45,536 bases of DNA. Source: Escherichia phage vB_EcoS_WFI. Under the pieces are notes generated by a model, which worked only from the letters and a program-made list of their open reading frames with translations, had not been told where the DNA came from and did not search any database. Both the position numbers and the translations under genes were made by a program. Location: sequence record NC_073058.1; one strand, written 5' to 3'. Shown piece by piece: positions 33,585 through 45,157 of the stretch (positions are counted from its first letter, which is position 1; each line of letters starts with the position of its first letter).

Positions 33585-35005
33585 TTGCGCACCTTCTTAG
33601 CTTTCATGTATTCCATCAAGTCGTCCTGGATGTCGCGCTTACCATCGCGGCGGTCCGCCACCAGTTCGTCCAGTGTCCCGCGTGCCTGGATAATATAGAC
33701 GAATACCGGTCGAGGGTGCCCGGCTTGCATCTGGCGAACTGGCCCGATACGCTCCACGATCTGCGCAAAGTGCTCATAGTTCCACGTATCCGAGAAGATA
33801 GCCAGGTGATGACCGCCGTCCTGCAAGTTAAGGCCGTGACCAGCCGATGCCGGGTGTGCGAACATGATGGGAATCTCGCCCCTGTTCCACGCTTCCATAT
33901 CCTTATTGCCCTGCTTACCCTTACCCATCGCAACGCCGTGGGGAAACTTCTTCTTCAGACGTGCCAGGTCGTGCTTGTACTGGTACGCAACGAGCAACGG
34001 CGCTCCGTTCAACTCCTCTACGATACTTTCCAGCGCGTCCAGCTTGGCGTCGTGAATCTTCTCCCACTCGTCGGTCCGCTCTCCGTCTTCGTCCACCTTA
34101 TACACGGCACCGGATGCAAGCTGAAGGCACTTGATGGTCTTAGCCGCAGCGTTCGCCGCTTCCACTGTTCCGCTTTCCAGTTCGGCAAATAGCTCACTCT
34201 CAAACTGGTCATAAATCTTGCGGGCTTTCTTCGGCAGGTCCACGACAACCGGCGTGTAGATTGGCTTGTCACATCCGAAGTATTCAGCCGCGTCCACGGT
34301 AAGGGATACATCGGACAGGCGCTGTTGGATCTCCTTCTCGGAGTTCTTTAGCGGGGCGTGCTGCATAGTGAAGCTGCCTGGCTTAACAGGCTTGCTAATA
34401 AACCAGCGATCGGTGAATGCCTTATAGCTACTGCCGAGGCGTTCGCCACCGTCGACAAACCACGTCTGACCCCATAAGTCTTTTAGCCCGTTTGGCGCTG
34501 GTGTGCCGGTAAGGTTAATCCAGCGCTTGACGTGTTTATGTGCAATCGCTGCCAGTGCGCGGGCGCGCTTGCTCCCCTGCTTGCTACGATAGCCTTTCAG
34601 CTTAGTCGATTCATCGGCAACAACCACCGTAAAGGGCCACGCATCGCCGTAATAGTCGACCAGCCACTCAACCACATCGTAGTTAACACAAACCACGTTA
34701 GCGTCGCTCTCAAGCGCGGCTATGCGGTCCTTCTCTGGTCCAGTGCCGTCTACGACCAGCAGGGATGAGAACCGCCATTTCTCCTGTTCCGGGGGCCATG
34801 TGCCGGAGGCAACGCGTAGCGGGGCCAGCACCAGTACGCGGTCCTCCTGGTTGGACAGGATGCCAGTCTGGAACATTTTGTTTAGCGCCCACATAGTCGC
34901 GCCGGTTTTACCGGACCCCATTGTCGCCCAAATATTGCAGCGCTCATGCTTGAGAATAAACGCGGTTATCAATTTCTGATATTCGCGACGTCGGAATCGT
35001 GCCAT
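33581..35005 (-). CDS. superfamily-2 DNA helicase
   Basis: Walker A TMGSGKTG and DEAD-like VVADESTK; start at 35005 with RBS. Confidence 0.75.
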   Translation of the reverse strand: MARFRRREYQKLITAFILKHERCNIWATMGSGKTGATMWALNKMFQTGILSNQEDRVLVLAPLRVASGTWPPEQEKWRFSSLLVVDGTGPEKDRIAALESDANVVCVNYDVVEWLVDYYGDAWPFTVVVADESTKLKGYRSKQGSKRARALAAIAHKHVKRWINLTGTPAPNGLKDLWGQTWFVDGGERLGSSYKAFTDRWFISKPVKPGSFTMQHAPLKNSEKEIQQRLSDVSLTVDAAEYFGCDKPIYTPVVVDLPKKARKIYDQFESELFAELESGTVEAANAAAKTIKCLQLASGAVYKVDEDGERTDEWEKIHDAKLDALESIVEELNGAPLLVAYQYKHDLARLKKKFPHGVAMGKGKQGNKDMEAWNRGEIPIMFAHPASAGHGLNLQDGGHHLAIFSDTWNYEHFAQIVERIGPVRQMQAGHPRPVFVYIIQARGTLDELVADRRDGKRDIQDDLMEYMKAKKVRK

Positions 35006-35009
35006 ATCT

Positions 35010-35234
35010 TTATTCCGCCTTTTTCCAGACTTCGGTTTCACTGTTCCAATTCCTCTTTGTGGCGTCGTAGTTGGTGGCGTGTCCAATGTGCACACCGGTC
35101 GCGCGGAAGCTCTTAAACTTCTGCCAGCACACTGTCAACGGCAGCGGGTAATTCATGCCTGCGATAAACCATACGCGATCGCCAGGTTTGCACTCTCCCA
35201 GCTTGGTGAGTCGGTAATGTTCTTTCATCGTCAT
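35010..35234 (-). CDS. hypothetical protein (74 aa)
   Basis: ORF track; tight spacing. Confidence 0.4.
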   Translation of the reverse strand: MTMKEHYRLTKLGECKPGDRVWFIAGMNYPLPLTVCWQKFKSFRATGVHIGHATNYDATKRNWNSETEVWKKAE

Positions 35235-35270
35235 GCCTCCAAAAATGGCGGGACAAGCCCGCCGTATTGA

Positions 35271-35444
35271 TTATTCTTGTTCTGCGCGATAGCGGCGCTG
35301 CCGATCACGTTCTTTCTTATTGCGGCACGATTTGCACTCGGCCCGATGCCCGTCTGGACTGCGCGCAGTCTTTCCGGTGTATTTGTGGAACTGGGATAGC
35401 GGCTTGATGCATCCGCAATTACTACAACGTTTTTCTTCAATCAT
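35271..35444 (-). CDS. small zinc-ribbon protein (57 aa)
   Basis: CSNCGC...CKSCRNKKER; RBS GAGGA. Confidence 0.45.
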   Translation of the reverse strand: MIEEKRCSNCGCIKPLSQFHKYTGKTARSPDGHRAECKSCRNKKERDRQRRYRAEQE

Positions 35445-35484
35445 TTCTAAAATCCTCGATAGGGCTAACCGGCACACTATACCG

Positions 35485-35763
35485 CTACGCGACCAATTCA
35501 GCAACCAATAAATCGCAGTCGGCTATGTTGTCAATAACGCGAACGTCAGCACCGCGGCGGGCCATTCGCTCATGTTCTCGCACCTGGTGCGGCTTCGGTT
35601 TTCCTCCGGGGCGCTTCACTTCGACGAATACTATGATGCCGTTGATGATAATAATCAGGTCGGGCGCACCTGCGCGCCCCTCCCATGCCAGCTTGCGGCA
35701 GAATCCGCCAACCTCTTTCACCCGTCGCATCAGGTGACTTTGAATATTGCCTTCTGGTGTCAT
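35485..35763 (-). CDS. VRR-NUC domain nuclease
   Basis: Motifs PDLIII..G.IVFVEVKRPGGK. Confidence 0.6.
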   Translation of the reverse strand: MTPEGNIQSHLMRRVKEVGGFCRKLAWEGRAGAPDLIIIINGIIVFVEVKRPGGKPKPHQVREHERMARRGADVRVIDNIADCDLLVAELVA

Positions 35764-38427: not shown

Positions 38428-38456
38428 AATAAAAAGCCCGCAATAAGCGGGCTTGA
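38428..38456 (-). terminator. rho-independent terminator (minus strand)
   Basis: AGCCCGC-TTATT-GCGGGCT hairpin followed by TTTTT on minus strand. Confidence 0.45.
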
Positions 38457-38472: not shown

Positions 38473-39261
38473 TTAACGGCGGCGACGTTTACGTGGTGCT
38501 TCGTCTTCGTCGTCGTCGTCCTCATCTTCGTCATCGCGGGACTTTCGACGCTTGCGAGGTTTTTCGTCTTCCTCGTCTTCGTCATCGTCATCACGACGCT
38601 TGGATTTCTTGGACTTGCGCGGCTTATCATCTTCGTCATCGTCATCACGACGTTTGGACTTCTTAGCCTTGCGCGGTGCTTCATCTTCGTCATCGTCGCC
38701 CAGGTCGTCATCGGAACAAGAAGACCCGCCGCCACCGAAGGAGTCACCATCGTCACGGAAGCGAAGACCCATCAAGCCAGCACCGAGACCTTTACCGTTG
38801 GTGTTGTTCCACGCCCAAATATCCAGGGACACGTTGCAATAACAACCGGAATAGATTTCCTGGCCTTCGATCTCGTCGCCGTCGATGGTCAGACCCTGTT
38901 CGGTCTGCTTCTCGCCCAGTGACGTTTGAATGTTAGGCTGTTTGAACGATTTGGCGTTGATGTACAACATGCCTTCGAATTCTTCGGTTACTTCGTCGCG
39001 CTCGTCGCCGTCACGAACTGCGCATTCCTTAGAATCCTGGGCGTAGTGGCGGTCCATCCACTTATCGGCGTTCTTCTCGGATTTCAGCTTGTCGGTAAGC
39101 ACTGCGCGCGCTGCCGCTTCCACTTTGTCCACCTGCGGATCTTCTTTATCAAGAAGAATCACGGCACGGTATGCCGGTTTTTGTCCATCCTGTTTAGGGG
39201 TATCACGTTCCCAAATTTTCAGGAAGCATACTCGTACATTTTTCAGGTTGACTTTAGCCAT
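38473..39261 (-). CDS. ssDNA-binding-like protein with highly charged repetitive C-terminal tail
   Basis: N-terminus MAKVNLKNVRVCF; C-terminus has three tandem units of DDDEDE...PRK.KKSKRR; gene linked to exonuclease and polymerase. Confidence 0.5.
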   Translation of the reverse strand: MAKVNLKNVRVCFLKIWERDTPKQDGQKPAYRAVILLDKEDPQVDKVEAAARAVLTDKLKSEKNADKWMDRHYAQDSKECAVRDGDERDEVTEEFEGMLYINAKSFKQPNIQTSLGEKQTEQGLTIDGDEIEGQEIYSGCYCNVSLDIWAWNNTNGKGLGAGLMGLRFRDDGDSFGGGGSSCSDDDLGDDDEDEAPRKAKKSKRRDDDDEDDKPRKSKKSKRRDDDDEDEEDEKPRKRRKSRDDEDEDDDDEDEAPRKRRRR

Positions 39262-39350
39262 TTCTCAATTCCTCATTTCGCATGTATCGGGGTTATTGTG
39301 AGCCACCCCGTTCGGCTTGGTTGCTAATTTACTTGGTTGCGCCTAAGCGG

Positions 39351-39593
39351 TCAAGCACTTTTATTAAAAAGATTTCGCGTCACGTAGTTGGTGGCGTTCT
39401 CGATCCAGCTTAACGGCGGTCGGTCGATGTGCTTCTCGACCCAATCGACGGCAACGTCGCTGTAGCCATCGTCCAGCCAGCGGGACGGATGGCGAATCAT
39501 CCAGGCCACCATTAACACGCCTTGCACGCAATGCAGGATAAAGCCCAGCGCGCCGAGCATAATCATCAATACGAATGCAAACACCTTATTCAT
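39351..39593 (-). CDS. small membrane protein (80 aa)
   Basis: Two hydrophobic helices. Confidence 0.45.
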   Translation of the reverse strand: MNKVFAFVLMIMLGALGFILHCVQGVLMVAWMIRHPSRWLDDGYSDVAVDWVEKHIDRPPLSWIENATNYVTRNLFNKSA

Positions 39594-41016
39594 TACTTAA
39601 GTCCTCATCAGTAGCTTCAGACCACGCAGGGCGCGGGTCGTCGATTGGTGCCAATACCGGTTTAGCCGGTGCGCGCGTGATTTTATCACACAATTTCGCC
39701 CACACTTTCGGTTTCTCGTCCTTCAATACCTTCTCGGCATCGGTAGGACTGAGCAATGTTTCTTTGTACATTACATCGCGCTTGATCCGGGCCTTCGTGA
39801 AGATTTCAATCACTTCGCTCTCATCCGCCCACTTGCGATTACCTTCCTTACCGGCAACCATCTTGAGGCCCAGCGATTCGCCATCACCCGCCATCACCGC
39901 CTTGAATACTGCGGACTCGATAGCCTTGATGTGCTGACGCATTGCGTCGAGGCCTTCGTATGCATTACGCAGTTCCGCCGCGCTCATAGCGCCATTGGAT
40001 TCTTCCTTATAGCCGCGCTTCGCACGTCGTGCCGCTTTCCGGGCTTCGCGGGCTGTATTGCGGTCGTGGTTGGCGCATTCTTCTTCTGTCGCCACGCTCA
40101 CGTCGTCCGCCAGGTCGTCGTCTGTTGCCGTTGGTGGGGTCATCGTGTCGATGGCGGCCTTAGCGCGGGCACTACACTGATCCGCAAATCGGCACCACTG
40201 ACAGGCGTCAACGCTCGGTCGGAAGTCGGCACGGGTAAGTCCCTTCTTGCCTCGGGAATACGCGTCCAGTGCCGCGACCGCTCGCTTGGACGCAAACTTA
40301 GCGAATATCTCCAGCGCTTCCACTGTAATATCCCACTCCGACGCCCCGCCGCAATACGGCTGGAAGATTACCAGGCGAACGGTCGTAATGTCGTACATGG
40401 TTTGCAGCTTGCGCAGCAGGCCCAGCGCGTACAACATAAGCTGTTTGTTTTCTTTCGCCTCGACCTTATGTCGCCCGGTCTTCAGGTCGCCAACAATAAG
40501 CATGTACGTGCCGTCGGTCTTCTTCATGACCATGACCATATCGGCAGTGCCAAACGTCTTCACCCTGTTGCCGTCTATCTCGAAGCCAGGGTGCAAGATG
40601 CGGGTGAGATCGGCGCGCATTTCAAGCTGGACAAACTCCGCCACTTCAAGGAGCGGTCGCCAGTGGTCGATGTACGCGTCACACTGTTTCACCATATCGT
40701 CGTTGACCAGTACGCCGCCTTTCGGTGCTTTCGGGTGCGCCTTTACCGGCCCCTTACCTTCGTTCTCAACGTAACACCCTTTGTACGTCTTCGCGGATAG
40801 CTTCTTCTCTCCGGCAATGATGCGGTTTAGCACGACTTCTGATACGGTGTGCATACTCGTACCGTTAATCGCAGCTTGCCCGGATTCGTTCGGGATACCT
40901 TTTTCGACTACCAGGGCGGCGGGGCACCCCATCCATTTTTTAGATCCCGATGGCCCGAGTAATGAGTGTTCGGTATTGCTACCGGATTGCGTTTTGCGCT
41001 TTGGTTTAATAGCCAT
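39586..41016 (-). CDS. Cas4/RecB-like PD-(D/E)xK exonuclease
   Basis: 476 aa; C-terminal Cys cluster CQWCRFADQC; co-located with SSB-like gene and polymerase. Confidence 0.55.
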   Translation of the reverse strand: MAIKPKRKTQSGSNTEHSLLGPSGSKKWMGCPAALVVEKGIPNESGQAAINGTSMHTVSEVVLNRIIAGEKKLSAKTYKGCYVENEGKGPVKAHPKAPKGGVLVNDDMVKQCDAYIDHWRPLLEVAEFVQLEMRADLTRILHPGFEIDGNRVKTFGTADMVMVMKKTDGTYMLIVGDLKTGRHKVEAKENKQLMLYALGLLRKLQTMYDITTVRLVIFQPYCGGASEWDITVEALEIFAKFASKRAVAALDAYSRGKKGLTRADFRPSVDACQWCRFADQCSARAKAAIDTMTPPTATDDDLADDVSVATEEECANHDRNTAREARKAARRAKRGYKEESNGAMSAAELRNAYEGLDAMRQHIKAIESAVFKAVMAGDGESLGLKMVAGKEGNRKWADESEVIEIFTKARIKRDVMYKETLLSPTDAEKVLKDEKPKVWAKLCDKITRAPAKPVLAPIDDPRPAWSEATDEDLSNE

Positions 41017-41201
41017 TATTCCACCCTTGTAAACTGGACAATTACATATTTACAGATATTAGCCATTCCCGCCTGTTCGACACGGCGGTGCACTTCATGC
41101 TGCGCATCTATCCAGCACATCGAGGCGTCATGGTTAACAACCATAAAAGAGAAGTGGTCGTTTGTTTTGTGGCAAGTTGCCAGCACGAAGAATTTAGCCA
41201 T
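41016..41201 (-). CDS. hypothetical protein (61 aa)
   Basis: ATG 41201 with RBS GGGAGA. Confidence 0.35.
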   Translation of the reverse strand: MAKFFVLATCHKTNDHFSFMVVNHDASMCWIDAQHEVHRRVEQAGMANICKYVIVQFTRVE

Positions 41202-41452
41202 TATTTCGTCTCCCAACGGTCAATTACTTTTTCCTCCGACGATACGGCAAAGCGAACATATTCCAGATTGGAGTCCGCCCAAATATAGAAGTCGGGGTTA
41301 GTAAATGTGGTGCGCTTAATTTGCGCGGGGTTATCGCGGCGTTTATCTATTACGGCAACGCGTGATTTAAAGTTGCCGGTACGTTCGAATAGCCAATAAT
41401 AAGGGCGCTGGTCGCGTGAATCCACCGCCTCGATTAGCGTGAAGCGTGCCAT
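41201..41452 (-). CDS. hypothetical protein (83 aa)
   Basis: ORF track. Confidence 0.4.
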   Translation of the reverse strand: MARFTLIEAVDSRDQRPYYWLFERTGNFKSRVAVIDKRRDNPAQIKRTTFTNPDFYIWADSNLEYVRFAVSSEEKVIDRWETK

Positions 41453-41462
41453 TGTCTCGTCC

Positions 41463-41494
41463 TCTAAAAATAGGCCCGCAGATTAGCGGGCCGG
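41463..41494 (-). terminator. rho-independent terminator (minus strand)
   Basis: GGCCCGCTAATCTGCGGGCC hairpin followed by TATTTTT on minus strand. Confidence 0.45.
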
Positions 41495-41500
41495 ATAATA

Positions 41501-41626
41501 TTAATCTTCACCGCCGAGTTGTCTATAAACCTCGTCCGGGTCGTCGCCTCTTTCTTCGCAGAAGGCGGTGAATGCCGCCCAATTTTCTGCTATGAAATCG
41601 AGCGTGATTCTCATTTCATAGTCCAT
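41501..41626 (-). CDS. possible small acidic protein (41 aa)
   Basis: ATG 41626; MDYEMRITLDFIAENWAAF...; below ORF-track size cut-off. Confidence 0.3.
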   Translation of the reverse strand: MDYEMRITLDFIAENWAAFTAFCEERGDDPDEVYRQLGGED

Positions 41627-41630
41627 TATA

Positions 41631-42149
41631 TTAATCTTCTAATTCGAAATAAGTTTCGACGATTGCTTTTAATTCCTGGTGGAACTCTTCCACGTCGTCA
41701 TCTTCCAGCTTGGCAACGGATTTAATTTCGAATTCTTCCAGCAGGTCGTCAAATTCGTCGTTTGCGTCGTCGTCATCACCGCCAGCAATAATAGCGGCAT
41801 ACTGCTTGATTTCGTCGCGCATCTCTTTCAGCGGATCGGCATCTTTCTTGCCTTTACCTTTCGCCGGTGCTTTCTTAGATTTCGCCGGGGCTTCTTCTTC
41901 GTCGTCCGCGTCGTCTTCTTCTACGGCTTCTTTCTTAGCCTTGCCCTTTGCTGGCGCTTTTTTGGTCTTAGCCGGTGCTTCGTCTTCAGCGTCGTCATCT
42001 TCGACTACTTCTTCTTTTGCCTTGCCCTTAGCCGGGGCTTTCTTCGCTTCCTGTTTACCAACGGCAGCGCCAGCAGTTTCATAATGCTTAGCGATGGTTT
42101 CCAGTGCTACTACGCCGCGTGTGATCAGGTTTACGATTTGCTCAAACAT
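41631..42149 (-). CDS. Lys/Ala-rich and acidic repeat protein (histone-H1-like repeats, acidic C-terminus)
   Basis: RBS GGAGA before ATG 42149; three tandem units KKAPAKGKAK...EEDDA(E/D)DE; first gene downstream of the strong leftward promoter. Confidence 0.6.
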   Translation of the reverse strand: MFEQIVNLITRGVVALETIAKHYETAGAAVGKQEAKKAPAKGKAKEEVVEDDDAEDEAPAKTKKAPAKGKAKKEAVEEDDADDEEEAPAKSKKAPAKGKGKKDADPLKEMRDEIKQYAAIIAGGDDDDANDEFDDLLEEFEIKSVAKLEDDDVEEFHQELKAIVETYFELED

Positions 42150-42345
42150 TGTATATCTCCGATTGGTTAAGTTTAGGTGTCGGCAGTCAACTTCGTCGGT
42201 GGCCTTAACATAGTGCCAGGTTACGCGTTCTCCCTTTCGGGTAGTGGACCTGGTTATATAATCACGGTTGGGAATCCTGACACTTCGATCCGGCCCCTGC
42301 GTTGCCCCTCTCCAGTTTGCGTCCTGCATCCTGTCGACGGAGTGA

Positions 42346-42375
42346 ATAATAGATTGGTTGCAGGTGGGGTGTCAA
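42346..42375 (-). promoter_or_regulatory. sigma70-like leftward promoter TTGACA-N18-TATTAT
   Basis: Minus strand reads GTTGACACCCCACCTGCAACCAATCTATTAT; about 190-nt leader to ATG 42149. Confidence 0.45.
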
Positions 42376-42492
42376 CAACTAATTTCAAAAAAAAAAGCGC
42401 CGAGGCAAAATGCGACGGCGCTAACCAATAAGAGACAATGAGACGTGATTATTATTACACGCGTGCGCGCCCGTTTCAATATACAAAAGGAG

Positions 42493-42521
42493 TTGACACC
42501 CTGCAATTTTAGGTGTAGTTT
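42493..42521 (+). promoter_or_regulatory. possible rightward promoter TTGACA-N17-TAGTTT
   Basis: GTTGACACCCTGCAATTTTAGGTGTAGTTT; the -35 flank GTTGACACCC...CTGCAA matches the leftward promoter; weak -10. Confidence 0.35.
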
Positions 42522-42552
42522 CGTTGGTCATTAACCAATAGGAGACAGAACA

Positions 42553-42882
42553 ATGCATATCAACGACGCTATCGAAATGTTAACTAAGACCGTAAGCGGT
42601 GAGACAAGCCGGTCCTGGGCTTATACCGATGCCGTTGGTGCGGCGTTATTTGAAATCGAACGCCTGCGCAGTGTCGAAAAAGAATTGCGCGCCAAGCTGG
42701 AATTACTCAACGGTACGGCAGCAAGCAAGCTGCAAAAACACAATGAAGAAATGGAAGAATACAAAAAGCAGGTTATCCGTTTACGCGACGAGGGCAAGTC
42801 CTGGGCGATGATTGCCGAGTTGACCGGAATTAATCAGAGCACCGTGCGCTCCTGGGTACGCAATAATAAAACTTCTAAGTAA
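42553..42882 (+). CDS. HTH-type transcriptional regulator (putative)
   Basis: RBS AGGAGA; C-terminal WAMIAELTGINQSTVRSWV resembles an HTH. Confidence 0.5.
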   Translation: MHINDAIEMLTKTVSGETSRSWAYTDAVGAALFEIERLRSVEKELRAKLELLNGTAASKLQKHNEEMEEYKKQVIRLRDEGKSWAMIAELTGINQSTVRSWVRNNKTSK

Positions 42883-42892
42883 GGCAACGGCA

Positions 42893-45157
42893 ATGAGCTT
42901 AATTAAATTCGCAGTAACAAGACCCGCTAAAAAAGGCGAAAAAGCCAGGGCGGAAAACTTCGAGATGACCACTGATGAGTTTTTCGAATTTATCAATGAT
43001 GCGAAAGAAATCTCCTCGGTGCACATCAACAAGACTGAAGATAAAGCCGAGTATGCGCGCCGCAAGCGTAAGGCCGATGGCATCGTGGCCTATACCAATG
43101 ATGGGTTACGCCGCAAGACCAGTGCGGTCGACCGCTCGATCCTGTTCTTCGATATTGACCGCACCGACACCCGCACATTACGCCGCTGCCGTAAAGCGTT
43201 CACCGACGCTGGTCTGGAGCATGTATTCCACACCACGACCGGCGACCGTCACCCACTGAAAGGCGGCACACGTTGCGCCCGTTTCCTGGTGCTCACTGAC
43301 AAGCCTGTACCGGCTGAAGACCTGGGCCGCGTCCAGTATGCATTGTTAGACCAACTGGGCTTGTCAGATGTGGACTTCGACGATTGTACAAAAGACACAA
43401 ACCGCCTTATGTACCTGCCTCACCAGCAGTCTGTCATAAAGTGCCACTACGGCAAGCGCGCCCGTGTCCGTCGTCTGCTTCGCCTGGCGGATAAGCTGGG
43501 AGTGGAGAAAGAGGAAGTGCGCCGCGAACTGACCCAGGGCGACGACGGCGTGGCGGACGGGATTCTGGATTGGTGCTTCCAGGCTGGCTTTGAACCACTG
43601 TCATCCGGTCGCGGTTATGAAGTGCCTTGCCCGAACGAGCACCTGCATAGCGGCGGCGGGTCGACGGCTATCATGGTTAAGGATGGCGAGATCCGTTTCA
43701 AGTGTATGCACACCGGCAACGAATGCTGTTCCGAACTGAATAAACACCAGCACCTGGCGTTACGTCTGATTGGTATCCCGGACCACTTGAACGTCGAGCC
43801 ACACAACATGTCACGCAAGCAAATCGCCGCAATCCTTCCGGGACTGGACGACGAGGAAGTGGAATCGTGCTATGAACATATTGTTGATGCGGTCGGAGAC
43901 GGCGACGAGTACGGCGAATGCACCGACGCTGACCTGGACAACGAGCCGGTCGCTCTGTTCAGTAAGCACGACCCGATTATCGAAGGCCTGGTCAACTTCA
44001 AATCTACCTGGTATATGGCGGGTGAGTCGAACATTGGTAAGTCGTTCTACGTGCTGGGCCAGATGGGCGCTGTTGCCGCGGGGATTCCGTTCGGTGGCGC
44101 GAAGGTCGTCCAGTCGCATTGCTTCTATTTCGATGCGGAAGGTGGCGAAGCCTCCAACCAGCGTAAGGAAGCATTGCAGATTAAATACGAGCACGACCTC
44201 GACAAGCTGCACATTATCGACCTGCAATCACGCGGCTGGGATATTACCAGCAAGTCAGGCTTGCGCGAGGTTATCAGCTTTATCAACCGCACCGCTAACG
44301 GGGAGCCGGTTGGCCTGGTGGCCTTCGACTCACTCAACCAGACTGTAGCGCTGCGGTCCGCTGATGCCAAACCGTTCGACGAGAACAACGCAAGCGATAT
44401 GGGTGAAGTGGTCAAAGCGCTGAAGTCCATTGCGGAAAATACAGGCGGCAGTGCGGGCGTCATCCATCACCCGGCTAAGGGTGCAAACGGCAGCAGATCC
44501 CCACGCGGGTCCGGCGCGCTTCATGGTGCTGTCGATTCTGCGTTCTTCCTGGAACAGCCGGACGATAATCAGCCAGGCCAACTCAACCTGTATCACGAAA
44601 AATCCCGTAACGGCATCAAGCAAGCGCCGCGTGGCTTCGTCCTGCTCAAGTGCAAAGTTAAGGTGGATCTCCGTAAGTCTGATGCGTTCGAAGCCCACCA
44701 GTCCACCAGCACCGGGCCAGACTTCGGCGATGTGGTTGCCGGTTGGGACGTCAAGCCAATTGCATCCACGCCACGCGACGAGACTCTCTACCTCGTACCG
44801 GTCGCCCTGGCACCGTTCGCTATCGAACAGGCTAAGGCAGCAGGCAAGGCCGCAGTTAAGGAAGAGAACACCGCCGGACCGCGCAACGAGAAAGAGAAGG
44901 TGCTTTATGCGGCACTGGAAAAACTGATGGAAGATAACCCGGACCATACTGGATTCAGTAAATCGGCAATTGTCCGCCAGGCTGGACTTGCGAAAGGTGG
45001 CACATCGACGAAGGCAATTGACGATATGGTGGAGCGCGGCGTGCTCGGGTTTTATACAGATCCACACACCGGGGCCATCTATGGGTCGTCGAATCTGGTC
45101 ATCAAATCGGATATACCCATCACGCTTTCAGCGACCGATGATGACTTAAAAGATTAA
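42893..45157 (+). CDS. primase/helicase fusion (primase-polymerase-like N-domain plus RepA-like RecA-fold ATPase)
   Basis: N-terminal ILFFDIDRTD and HVFHTTTGDRHP; C-terminal Walker A GESNIGKS and motifs VAFDSLNQ, VIHHPAKG. Confidence 0.6.
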   Translation: MSLIKFAVTRPAKKGEKARAENFEMTTDEFFEFINDAKEISSVHINKTEDKAEYARRKRKADGIVAYTNDGLRRKTSAVDRSILFFDIDRTDTRTLRRCRKAFTDAGLEHVFHTTTGDRHPLKGGTRCARFLVLTDKPVPAEDLGRVQYALLDQLGLSDVDFDDCTKDTNRLMYLPHQQSVIKCHYGKRARVRRLLRLADKLGVEKEEVRRELTQGDDGVADGILDWCFQAGFEPLSSGRGYEVPCPNEHLHSGGGSTAIMVKDGEIRFKCMHTGNECCSELNKHQHLALRLIGIPDHLNVEPHNMSRKQIAAILPGLDDEEVESCYEHIVDAVGDGDEYGECTDADLDNEPVALFSKHDPIIEGLVNFKSTWYMAGESNIGKSFYVLGQMGAVAAGIPFGGAKVVQSHCFYFDAEGGEASNQRKEALQIKYEHDLDKLHIIDLQSRGWDITSKSGLREVISFINRTANGEPVGLVAFDSLNQTVALRSADAKPFDENNASDMGEVVKALKSIAENTGGSAGVIHHPAKGANGSRSPRGSGALHGAVDSAFFLEQPDDNQPGQLNLYHEKSRNGIKQAPRGFVLLKCKVKVDLRKSDAFEAHQSTSTGPDFGDVVAGWDVKPIASTPRDETLYLVPVALAPFAIEQAKAAGKAAVKEENTAGPRNEKEKVLYAALEKLMEDNPDHTGFSKSAIVRQAGLAKGGTSTKAIDDMVERGVLGFYTDPHTGAIYGSSNLVIKSDIPITLSATDDDLKD

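What the first reader, a model, noticed from the sequence alone, without database searches (positions are those of the whole stretch)
41631..42149. First gene of the leftward early operon encodes a repetitive Lys/Ala-rich and strongly acidic protein
Immediately downstream of the best promoter in the window (TTGACA-N18-TATTAT) and a long leader, the first ORF has three tandem KKAPAKGKAK basic units alternating with acidic runs (EEDDAEDE), and a very acidic C-terminus (GGDDDDANDEFDDLLEEFE). Strongly acidic first-expressed proteins in phages are often DNA mimics that block restriction or other DNA-binding defences. The basic repeats resemble histone H1-like nucleoid proteins. The DNA carries matching tandem repeats at about 41830-42060.
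Basis: inference. Interest (0 to 1): 0.65.

Follow-up and report, generated by a model that had tools for sequence, protein, structure and literature searches.

The report
Abundant acidic repeat protein of coliphage
The gene is real and makes an abundant, non-virion protein of unknown function that heads the DNA replication/recombination gene block of several coliphage groups, and its long leader turns out to be an undescribed, strongly conserved structured RNA.

Summary
The window is a Dhillonvirus genome, 99.9% identical to Escherichia phage vB_EcoS-101114BS4.

The protein (PHROG 3127, unknown function) has three parts:
- a conserved N-terminal amphipathic helix;
- a disordered basic/acidic linker with 0-3 repeat units among relatives;
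- a conserved three-helix bundle with net charge -19.

It matches no Pfam, NCBIfam or PDB family and no known DNA-mimic fold. It keeps its place beside the DUF2800 nuclease, T7-type SSB and PolA genes in Dhillonvirus, Jerseyvirus and phiEap-2-like phages. Published proteomics of phage EE09 found its homologue among only four phage proteins detected in infected cells, and not in cell-free lysates.

My best guess is a stoichiometric acidic decoy or adaptor for a DNA-metabolism protein, with RecBCD the leading candidate. This is unproven. Classical anti-restriction is disfavoured.

Side findings:
- the 160-nt leader is a six-helix RNA shared by several coliphage families and absent from Rfam;
- a candidate small RNA lies upstream.

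The parts
42346..42375 (-). Sigma-70-type promoter TTGACA-N18-TATTAT driving the gene. The transcript start is predicted near 42339.
   Evidence: it is the only 11/12 match in the whole window. It is conserved in 16 Dhillonvirus loci.
42179..42338 (-). Structured leader RNA of about 160 nt, starting at about +1/+2 of the transcript. It has six helices: P1 closes the element, P2 has an AGGAY loop, then P3, P4a, P4b and P5. Long invariant unpaired stretches include GAUCGWAGUGUCAGGAUUCCCAACCGUGA.
   Evidence: 97.5% of cells are paired and 25 of 41 pairs show compensatory changes; 0 of 500 shuffles reach this. No Rfam hit at E<=1. The block is absent from 4 of 16 Dhillonvirus loci.
42157..42160 (-). 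Shine-Dalgarno GGAG, 7 nt upstream of the ATG, inside the conserved motif TTAACCAATCGGAGATA.
41631..42149 (-). Coding sequence of 172 aa, PHROG 3127 (stop codon included in the coordinates).
   Evidence: The homologue was detected as protein in infected cells.
42072..42146 (-). Residues 2-26: conserved amphipathic N-terminal helix (invariant R11, A15, E17 across the family).
   Evidence: Alignments. AlphaFold2 helix 2-26 with pLDDT 74-82. Hydrophobic moment 0.52.
41835..42071 (-). Residues 27-105: disordered polyampholyte linker with three KKAPAKGK[AG]K units alternating with acidic runs. Its length varies among relatives.
   Evidence: pLDDT <55. 0-3 units among 96 cluster representatives. Alignment gaps.
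41837..42044 (.). DNA tandem repeat: 87-nt period, 2.5 copies, 75% matches. It encodes the repeated linker.
41646..41834 (-). Residues 106-168: conserved, strongly acidic three-helix bundle. Net charge is -19 for residues 106-172.
   Evidence: pLDDT >90, helices 106-123, 127-139 and 150-168. Charge. Conservation.
41501..41626 (-). Optional 41-aa ORF (PHROG 15754) inserted between the gene and its terminator. It is present only in the window, L004 and L017 among 15 loci compared.
41463..41492 (-). Intrinsic terminator GGCCCGC-loop-GCGGGCC plus a U-run, conserved in all Dhillonvirus loci compared.
   Evidence: It is also annotated as a terminator in WF5505.

Best explanation
**What is shown.** The gene encodes a real, abundantly made, non-virion protein. 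It is a conserved member of the replication/recombination gene block: primase-helicase, this gene, DUF2800 PD-(D/E)XK exonuclease, T7-type SSB, PolA. The block is shared by small enterobacterial siphophages.

**Architecture.** The protein has three parts:
- a conserved amphipathic N-terminal helix;
- a disordered linker of alternating Lys/Ala/Pro-rich and Asp/Glu-rich blocks, which grows and shrinks by 87-nt tandem duplication;
- a conserved three-helix bundle with net charge about -19.

**Proposed mechanism (inferred).**
- It acts stoichiometrically as an acidic decoy or adaptor.
- The acidic bundle occupies the basic, nucleic-acid-binding surface of a DNA-metabolism protein.
- The N-helix gives oligomerisation or a second contact.
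- The linker is a flexible tether that may touch DNA weakly through its basic patches.

**Most likely target (inferred).** A DNA-end-processing nuclease, with host RecBCD first. That would make this the functional counterpart of lambda Gam or T7 gp5.9, whose genes also sit next to the phage exonuclease gene. The phage's own nuclease, SSB or polymerase is the alternative partner.

The strong promoter followed by the gene's own terminator explains the high protein dose relative to the downstream enzymes.

Expression, abundance, architecture and synteny are shown. The decoy mechanism and the target are inferred.
For: - **Architecture and conservation.**; charge.
- **Family size.** A small family of uniform architecture: 61 clusters at 50% identity, 115-212 aa, some with a duplicated C-terminal domain.
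- **Synteny.** The position between the primase-helicase and the DUF2800 nuclease, DUF2815 SSB and PolA is conserved in phages whose homologues are only 30-45% identical. These phages include SETP3 and other Jerseyvirus, and phiEap-2.
- **SSB identity.** DUF2815 is an experimentally shown T7-type SSB (PMC5686142).
- **Abundance.** EE09 CDS56, the homologue, is one of four phage proteins seen in infected cells at 25 min, together with the SSB homologue CDS61. It is absent from cell-free lysates.
- **Transcription unit.** The strongest promoter plus a dedicated conserved terminator.
- **Hint of RecBCD inhibition.** Dhillonviruses are sensitive to P2 OLD, and RecBCD inhibitors such as Gam and gp5.9 are sufficient to activate OLD. 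This suggests they encode a still unknown RecBCD inhibitor (bioRxiv 10.64898/2026.07.10.737580).
- **Positional analogy.** gam-bet-exo in lambda and 5.9-6 in T7. This is from established knowledge, recalled from memory, not tested here.
Against: - No interaction was or could be tested.
- According to the title of the OLD preprint, OLD also monitors phage replication and DNA defects, so OLD sensitivity is weak evidence.
- Strict co-inheritance with replication genes fits a replisome accessory role equally well.
- The basic, AT-hook-like patches in the linker suggest direct nucleic-acid binding, which a pure decoy would not need (for example KRGRP in P0109).
Confidence: 0.35

Rival explanations
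1. Replisome or replication-compartment accessory protein. The basic linker patches bind DNA. The acidic bundle and N-helix bind the phage SSB, polymerase or primase-helicase. The protein organises or tethers replication and recombination, possibly through multivalent charge-block interactions.
For: - Strict synteny with replication genes across genera.
- Co-abundance with the SSB in infected cells.
- AT-hook/RGR-like basic motifs in distant members.
- Duplicated C-terminal domains in some members.
Against: - Close relatives have almost no linker (115-122 aa, 0 units), so DNA binding by the repeats cannot be essential.
- No homology to any known replisome factor.
Confidence: 0.27
2. Ocr/ArdA-like DNA mimic that blocks restriction-modification or another DNA-targeting defence.
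For: - Very acidic protein behind the strongest promoter; abundant and not in the virion.
Against: - No Ocr or ArdA family or fold match.
- Small siphoviruses including Dhillonvirus are described as considerably to moderately sensitive to restriction-modification systems.
- The gene is core and syntenic, not in a variable accessory region.
- The known Dhillonvirus anti-defence or trigger proteins are other genes: anti-Tmn is ORF35 and Ksap1 is a 74-aa protein.
Confidence: 0.1
3. Host take-over factor that titrates a host nucleoid or transcription protein. H-NS is one candidate target, as for T7 gp5.5, T4 Arn or MotB; RNA polymerase is another.
For: - Abundant, acidic and sigma-70 driven.
- T7 gp5.5 is likewise abundant and encoded among the replication genes. 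This is from memory, not tested.
Against: No similarity to any such protein and no direct evidence.
Confidence: 0.1

Closest known systems
T7 gp5.9 and lambda Gam (RecBCD inhibitors acting as DNA mimics or decoys)
   Same: - Small, helical, acidic proteins.
- Made in quantity.
- Encoded next to the phage's own exonuclease and annealing/SSB genes.
   Different: - No sequence or fold relationship.
- This protein adds a conserved N-terminal helix and a long repeat linker.
- RecBCD inhibition is untested.
T7 Ocr / plasmid ArdA (anti-restriction DNA mimics)
   Same: High negative charge and expression from a strong promoter recognised by the host RNA polymerase.
   Different: - The predicted fold is a compact 63-residue three-helix bundle plus a disordered linker, not an elongated B-DNA-shaped dimer.
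- No family match.
- The phage genus is sensitive to restriction-modification systems.
Histone H1-like Lys/Ala/Pro-rich bacterial proteins (AlgP, Hc1, HupB tail)
   Same: Short K/A/P-rich repeats of the KKAPAKGKAK type.
   Different: - The protein is acidic overall (pI 4.5).
- The basic units alternate with acidic blocks and vary from 0 to 3 copies.
- No Pfam match.
PHROG 3127 (with related PHROGs 18196, 32389, 18562, 408); Salmonella phage MB78 '13.88 kDa late protein' (Q9T1Z8); Edwardsiella phage eiAU Gp46; SETP3 ORF42
   Same: True homologues with the same three-part architecture and the same genomic position.
   Different: None has a known function. The 'late protein' label conflicts with 'early' and could not be traced to a paper.
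HK022 put RNA (for the leader element only)
   Same: A promoter-proximal, cis-encoded structured RNA at the head of an operon that contains intrinsic terminators.
   Different: - put is about 70 nt with two stem-loops (PMC9378689); this element is about 160 nt with six helices.
- Antitermination is untested.
- Four of 16 Dhillonvirus loci lack the element but keep the terminator.

Membership tests
PHROG 3127 (phage protein family of unknown function) | Full-length match to the family profile. | tested here: met
   E=2.3e-50 over residues 1-172 against profile positions 1-178 of 178.
Ocr / ArdA anti-restriction DNA mimics | Sequence membership in the Pfam or NCBIfam families. | tested here: not met
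   Only low-complexity noise below the cut-offs in Pfam and NCBIfam, for the protein itself and for 31 family members.
Ocr / ArdA anti-restriction DNA mimics | Elongated dimeric fold displaying acidic residues in a B-DNA-like pattern. | tested here: not met
Ocr / ArdA anti-restriction DNA mimics | Strong net negative charge (pI about 4). | tested here: met
   Net charge -22 and pI 4.48. The family median pI is 4.51.
Ocr / ArdA anti-restriction DNA mimics | Binds and inhibits type I restriction-modification enzymes. | not testable with these tools
   Indirect only: Dhillonviruses are reported as sensitive to restriction-modification systems (PMC11990801).
Gam / gp5.9-type RecBCD inhibitors | Sequence or fold relationship to Gam or gp5.9. 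| tested here: not met
Gam / gp5.9-type RecBCD inhibitors | Encoded next to the phage exonuclease and annealing/SSB genes. | tested here: met
   A conserved position upstream of the DUF2800 nuclease and DUF2815 SSB in 14 divergent loci. In SETP3 it lies 42 nt upstream of the nuclease gene.
Gam / gp5.9-type RecBCD inhibitors | Inhibits RecBCD. | not testable with these tools
   The only lead is the sensitivity of Dhillonviruses to P2 OLD.
Histone H1-like / AlgP-type nucleoid proteins | Net basic protein with K/A/P repeats that binds DNA. | tested here: not met
   K/A/P units are present, but the protein is acidic and the linker has net charge -3. The units are dispensable in relatives. No Pfam match. 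DNA binding was not tested.
Virion structural protein | Detected in purified particles or lysates. | tested here: not met
   EE09 CDS56 is absent from the 24 proteins found in cell-free lysate but was detected in infected cells (PMC10673088).
Rfam families (for the leader RNA) | Covariance-model match. | tested here: not met
   No match in the leader at E<=1 against 4227 families. No tRNA or tmRNA in the window.
HK022 put-type antiterminator RNA (for the leader RNA) | Promoter-proximal position at the head of an operon containing terminators. | tested here: met
   P1 starts at about +1/+2 of the transcript. In-line terminators lie at 41492, 38454 and 35263. The element sits in the same promoter-proximal position in six other phage types.
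HK022 put-type antiterminator RNA (for the leader RNA) | About 70 nt with a two-stem-loop architecture; acts on the RNA polymerase beta-prime zinc-binding domain. | tested here: not met
   The architecture differs: 160 nt and six helices, against the put description in PMC9378689. Action on RNA polymerase cannot be tested here.

The most novel reading that the evidence does not exclude
Two linked novelties are not excluded.
1. The protein founds a new class of abundant acidic decoys built as helix, ampholyte repeats and acidic bundle. Such a decoy would neutralise RecBCD or another DNA-end enzyme for a whole supergroup of siphophages that use the DUF2800/DUF2815/PolA module.
2. Its 160-nt promoter-proximal leader is a new class of cis-acting phage RNA. 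It could be a put-like processive antiterminator or an RNA polymerase- or ribosome-binding element. It is shared by Dhillonvirus, Drexlerviridae, Jilinvirus and other coliphages, always at the 5' end of early-type operons.
Probability: 0.3. Interest if true: 0.8.

Novelty: new variant of a known kind. Interest (0 to 1): 0.5.

Why it matters
**The protein.**
- It is conserved and among the few phage proteins detected in infected cells, in a very commonly isolated group of coliphages. These include BASEL Bas14-18 and Bas83-85, and SECphi4/6/18.
- It sits in the replication/recombination module that many bacterial immune systems sense; published examples from these phages are Retron-Eco8 (SSB) and Borvo (DNA polymerase).
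- Knowing its partner would fill a gap in how these phages protect or organise their DNA. It could also identify the unknown RecBCD-related trigger implied by their OLD sensitivity.

**The leader RNA.**
- It is probably the more valuable lead. It is a large RNA with strong covariation and nearly invariant unpaired segments.
- It is placed at the very start of early-type transcripts in several phage families, and it is absent from Rfam and from the searchable literature.
- This makes RNA-based control of phage early transcription beyond HK022 put directly testable.

Tried and rejected
**Searches that found nothing useful.**
- Pfam, NCBIfam and PDB sequence searches, with the single sequence and with a profile, gave only low-complexity noise.
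- The first AlphaFold2 run used a shallow alignment of close relatives and gave a poor model (pLDDT 53). A second run with a diverse 31-sequence alignment gave a confident C-terminal domain.
- A literature search for the leader sequence found nothing.
- A search for the origin of the MB78 'late protein' name found nothing.

**Candidate identities rejected.**
- anti-Tmn of PhiSMS22 is ORF35, with an alpha/beta fold.
- Ksap1 is a 74-aa protein encoded elsewhere in the genome.
- The phage escape-mutant data for SECphi4 and SECphi18 involve the SSB and the polymerase, not this gene.
- The 232-aa ORF extension was rejected.

**Methods that failed on the leader RNA.**
- Single-sequence folding of the leader was not better than shuffles (z = -0.5).
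- RNAalifold on MAFFT alignments missed most helices because the variable arms were misaligned. Covariation became clear only after manual structural alignment.
- The 'terminator' annotated inside the leader in WF5505 appears to lie within the leader block and is most likely one of its inner hairpins; I did not map it precisely.

Full report
**1. Identity of the window**

Bases 41000-43000 are 99.9% identical to Escherichia phage vB_EcoS-101114BS4 (genus Dhillonvirus). They are 87-99% identical to more than 100 other Dhillonvirus genomes. Depositors annotate the target as 'hypothetical protein', either as about 173 aa (bob, WF5505) or as 232 aa (101114BS4, EE09).

**2. The observation**

- The minus-strand ORF 41631..42149 encodes 172 aa and is preceded by GGAG at 42160-42157.
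- KKAPAKGKAK occurs at residues 36-45 and 63-72, and KKAPAKGKGK at 92-101. Acidic runs separate them.
- The protein has net charge -22 and pI 4.48. Residues 106-172 carry -19.
- Tandem Repeats Finder reports an 87-nt unit, 2.5 copies, 75% matches, at 41837-42044.
- The promoter TTGACA-N18-TATTAT (42375..42346) is the only 11/12 consensus match on either strand of the window.

**3. True start of the gene**

The 60-codon upstream extension used in some records is not coding.
- In an alignment of 12-16 Dhillonvirus loci, every substitution in it is non-synonymous in that frame.
- Two loci carry a 2-nt indel just before the ATG.
- Four loci (L005, L008, L010, L014) lack the whole 150-nt block.

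**4. Architecture of the protein**

The large protein database returned 228 relatives, the closest ones from Dhillonvirus-sized (~45-kb) contigs, with lengths of 115-179 aa for correctly started genes. An exhaustive profile search of 1.84 billion cluster representatives found only 61 clusters. All are 115-212 aa, with no fusion to a known domain; a few of the weakest hits differ at the N terminus. Three have a duplicated C-terminal domain.

Alignments show three parts:
- a conserved N-terminal segment, consensus MLEKFLxLLERFVVAHELIAAN, with invariant R11, A15 and E17;
- a linker that does not align between members and always mixes Lys/Arg/Pro-rich with Asp/Glu-rich patches, in distant members with AT-hook/RGR-like motifs such as KRGRP;
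- a conserved C-terminal region of about 65 residues, with the pattern LRDEI...GDxDD...FDDLLE...V..KL.DEDV..FH...K.IV.KYY.

Among 96 Dhillonvirus-type cluster representatives, the number of AKG[KN][AG]K units is 0 in 8, 1 in 50, 2 in 33 and 3 in 5. The window therefore carries the longest form. The repeats behave as a linker of expandable length.

AlphaFold2 with the diverse alignment gives:
- helix 2-26, pLDDT 74-82;
- disorder over residues 27-105;
- a confident three-helix bundle, helices 106-123, 127-139 and 150-168, pLDDT above 90.

The N-helix is amphipathic, with a hydrophobic moment of 0.52.

**5. No known relatives**

- Pfam, NCBIfam and PDB sequence searches, both single-sequence and profile-based, give only low-complexity noise.
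- PHROGs places the protein in phrog_3127. Distant members also match phrogs 18196, 32389, 18562 and 408. All are of unknown function.
- Foldseek against the PDB gives nothing below E=0.3.
- BFVD returns only family members: Edwardsiella phage eiAU Gp46, Salmonella phage St162, and the Salmonella phage MB78 '13.88 kDa late protein'.

**6. Genomic context**

In 14 divergent loci from IMG/VR, the homologue lies between the primase-helicase gene and the DUF2800 PD-(D/E)XK nuclease. It shares 30-45% identity overall, and about 40-55% over the C-terminal segment that BLAST aligns. The DUF2815 protein and PolA follow. These loci are SETP3 and other Jerseyvirus phages, and relatives of phiEap-2. DUF2815 is a crystallographically and biochemically characterised T7-type SSB (PMC5686142).

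The gene is thus a vertically inherited core member of the replication/recombination module, not a variable accessory gene.

**7. Transcription unit**

Immediately after the gene, every Dhillonvirus locus has the intrinsic terminator GGCCCGC-loop-GCGGGCC followed by a U-run (41492..41473). In the window, L004 and L017, an extra 41-aa ORF is inserted between the stop codon and the terminator.

Further in-line terminator-like hairpins follow the SSB gene (38454..38434) and lie beyond PolA (35263..35247). So the strongest promoter mainly serves this one gene, and downstream genes depend on read-through or on weaker promoters.

**8. Experimental evidence from the literature**

- In E. coli infected with the Dhillonvirus EE09, only four phage proteins were detected at 25 min: CDS29, CDS40, CDS56 and CDS61. 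CDS56 is not among the 24 proteins found in cell-free lysates (PMC10673088).
- The record and the paper's supplement show that CDS56 (34845..35543) is the target's homologue, next to the 'putative transposase' HTH gene.
- CDS61 occupies the position of the DUF2815 SSB gene.
- The protein is therefore made, abundant and non-structural.

Known Dhillonvirus immune-related proteins are different genes: anti-Tmn is ORF35 (PMC11846954) and Ksap1 is a 74-aa protein.

Small siphoviruses including Dhillonvirus are described as considerably to moderately sensitive to restriction-modification systems (PMC11990801).

Dhillonviruses are sensitive to P2 OLD, and the RecBCD inhibitors Gam and gp5.9 are sufficient to activate OLD (bioRxiv 10.64898/2026.07.10.737580). 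This hints at an unidentified RecBCD inhibitor in these phages.

**9. Interpretation**

*Shown:* a real gene, a three-part architecture, a repeat-length polymorphism, core synteny, high expression, and absence from the virion.

*Inferred:* a stoichiometric acidic decoy or adaptor for a DNA-metabolism protein. I rank the candidate roles as follows.
- **RecBCD or nuclease inhibition first.** This rests on the positional analogy with gam-exo in lambda and 5.9-6 in T7 (from memory), the acidity, the high dose and the OLD hint.
- **A replisome or recombination accessory role second.**
- **Classical anti-restriction and H-NS- or RNA polymerase-directed take-over lower.**

None could be tested here. 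Multimer structure prediction and simple genetics would decide among them.

**10. The 'long leader' is a structured RNA**

- The block 42338..42179 is about 96% identical among Dhillonviruses, more conserved than the flanking coding DNA at roughly 87-90%.
- An exact 19-mer from it recurs in non-Dhillonvirus contigs. Each time it lies directly downstream of a sigma-70-like promoter, but upstream of different small early-type genes.
- BLAST and nhmmer find it in Warwickvirus/Drexlerviridae (tunus), Jilinvirus (Arya), IME279-like phages and others.
- I made a manual structural alignment of 12 distinct sequences and checked every row against the real sequences. It gives six helices and 41 pairs.
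- On this alignment, 97.5% of cells are paired and 25 pairs show compensatory changes. None of 500 shuffles reaches this, and the slid controls give at most 6 such pairs.
- Cognate P4 arms pair at -10.5 kcal/mol, against -4.8 +/- 2.1 for non-cognate combinations.
- Caveat: the alignment was fitted by hand to the structure, so it leans towards it.
- The element is not in Rfam at E<=1, is not a tRNA, and was not found in the literature by sequence.
- Its position at the extreme 5' end of operons that contain terminators recalls HK022 put (PMC9378689), but its size and architecture differ.
- Leader-less Dhillonviruses keep the terminator. Antitermination is therefore only one hypothesis, beside translational or stability control, a riboswitch, or a trans-acting RNA.

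**11. Candidate small RNA**

- Upstream, on the same strand, lies the promoter TTGAAA-17-(TG)TAATAAT (42479..42451). It is followed by about 58 nt ending in a strong terminator with a U10 tail (about 42444..42387).
- The unit is nearly invariant in all Dhillonviruses.
- Its single-stranded 5' part is complementary to the ribosome-binding regions of both divergent first genes. The predicted duplex with the HTH gene is -27.9 kcal/mol (0 of 1000 shuffled seeds reach it). With the target gene it is -19.0 kcal/mol (16 of 1000).
- The alternative is that the shared TAACCAATNGGAGA motif is a protein-binding site or simply a common ribosome-binding context.

**12. Verdict**

The gene belongs to a conserved, uncharacterised phage family tied to replication and recombination. 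The most novel element at this locus is the leader RNA.

Noticed in passing
window 42179-42338 (minus strand): The 'long leader' is a structured RNA of about 160 nt with six helices, starting at the 5' end of the transcript.
- It is shared by Dhillonvirus, Drexlerviridae (tunus), Jilinvirus (Arya), IME279-like and other coliphages.
- In each it lies just after a sigma-70-like promoter and upstream of different early-type genes.
- Covariation is strong: 25 of 41 pairs are compensatory.
- It is absent from Rfam and from 4 of 16 Dhillonvirus loci.
   Followed up: partly
window 42387-42479 (minus strand): Candidate small RNA of about 58 nt.
- It has the promoter TTGAAA-17-TGTAATAAT, a single-stranded 5' seed UGUCUCUUAUUGGUUAG, and a strong terminator with a U10 tail.
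- It is nearly invariant in Dhillonviruses.
- The seed is complementary to the ribosome-binding regions of both divergent first genes (42172-42156 on the minus strand and 42528-42544 on the plus strand).
- The plus-strand copy could instead be the ribosome-binding site of a 24-aa ORF, or a protein-binding site.
   Followed up: partly
window 41631-42329 (minus strand); also EE09_56 and 101114BS4_062: Several GenBank records annotate a 232-aa protein starting at ATG 42329. The extra 60 codons lie over the leader RNA and are not conserved as coding sequence.
   Followed up: yes
window 41501-41626 (minus strand): A 41-aa ORF (PHROG 15754) is an optional insertion between the target's stop codon and the terminator. 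It is present in only 3 of 15 loci compared. It ends in the same GAAGATTAATAT sequence as the target gene, which suggests insertion by duplication or recombination at that motif.
   Followed up: partly
window 41473-41492 and homologous sites in L004-L028: The terminator stem is invariant, but the loop occurs as TAATCT or as its reverse complement AGATTA (also ATATTA) in different phages, as if the hairpin had been inverted.
   Followed up: no
window 42553-42882 (plus strand): The divergent 109-aa gene is labelled 'DNA recombination nuclease inhibitor gamma' or 'transposase' in databases. Here it matches only helix-turn-helix families (HTH_23, HTH_28, Sigma70_r4_2) after a coiled-coil N-terminal half. 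It is more likely a small transcription regulator, and no Gam match was seen.
   Followed up: partly
window 38434-38454, 39326-39354 and 35247-35263 (minus strand): The SSB gene (38473-39261) has its own weak promoter-like site upstream and a strong terminator-like hairpin downstream. The two non-structural proteins seen in the EE09 proteomics, the target and the SSB, are both genes followed by terminators.
   Followed up: no
P0121, P0125, P0135 (distant homologues, 208-212 aa): Some family members carry two tandem copies of the acidic C-terminal helical domain.
   Followed up: no
L142-L146 (genome-contig hits): The leader 19-mer occurs in five metagenome-assembled 'bacterial' genomes of implausible taxa (Acidobacteriota, Porphyromonas, Cereibacter and others). 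Two sit on contigs of typical coliphage genome size (42.8 and 51.5 kb), two on shorter contigs and one on a 293-kb contig. They are probably mis-binned phage contigs.
   Followed up: no
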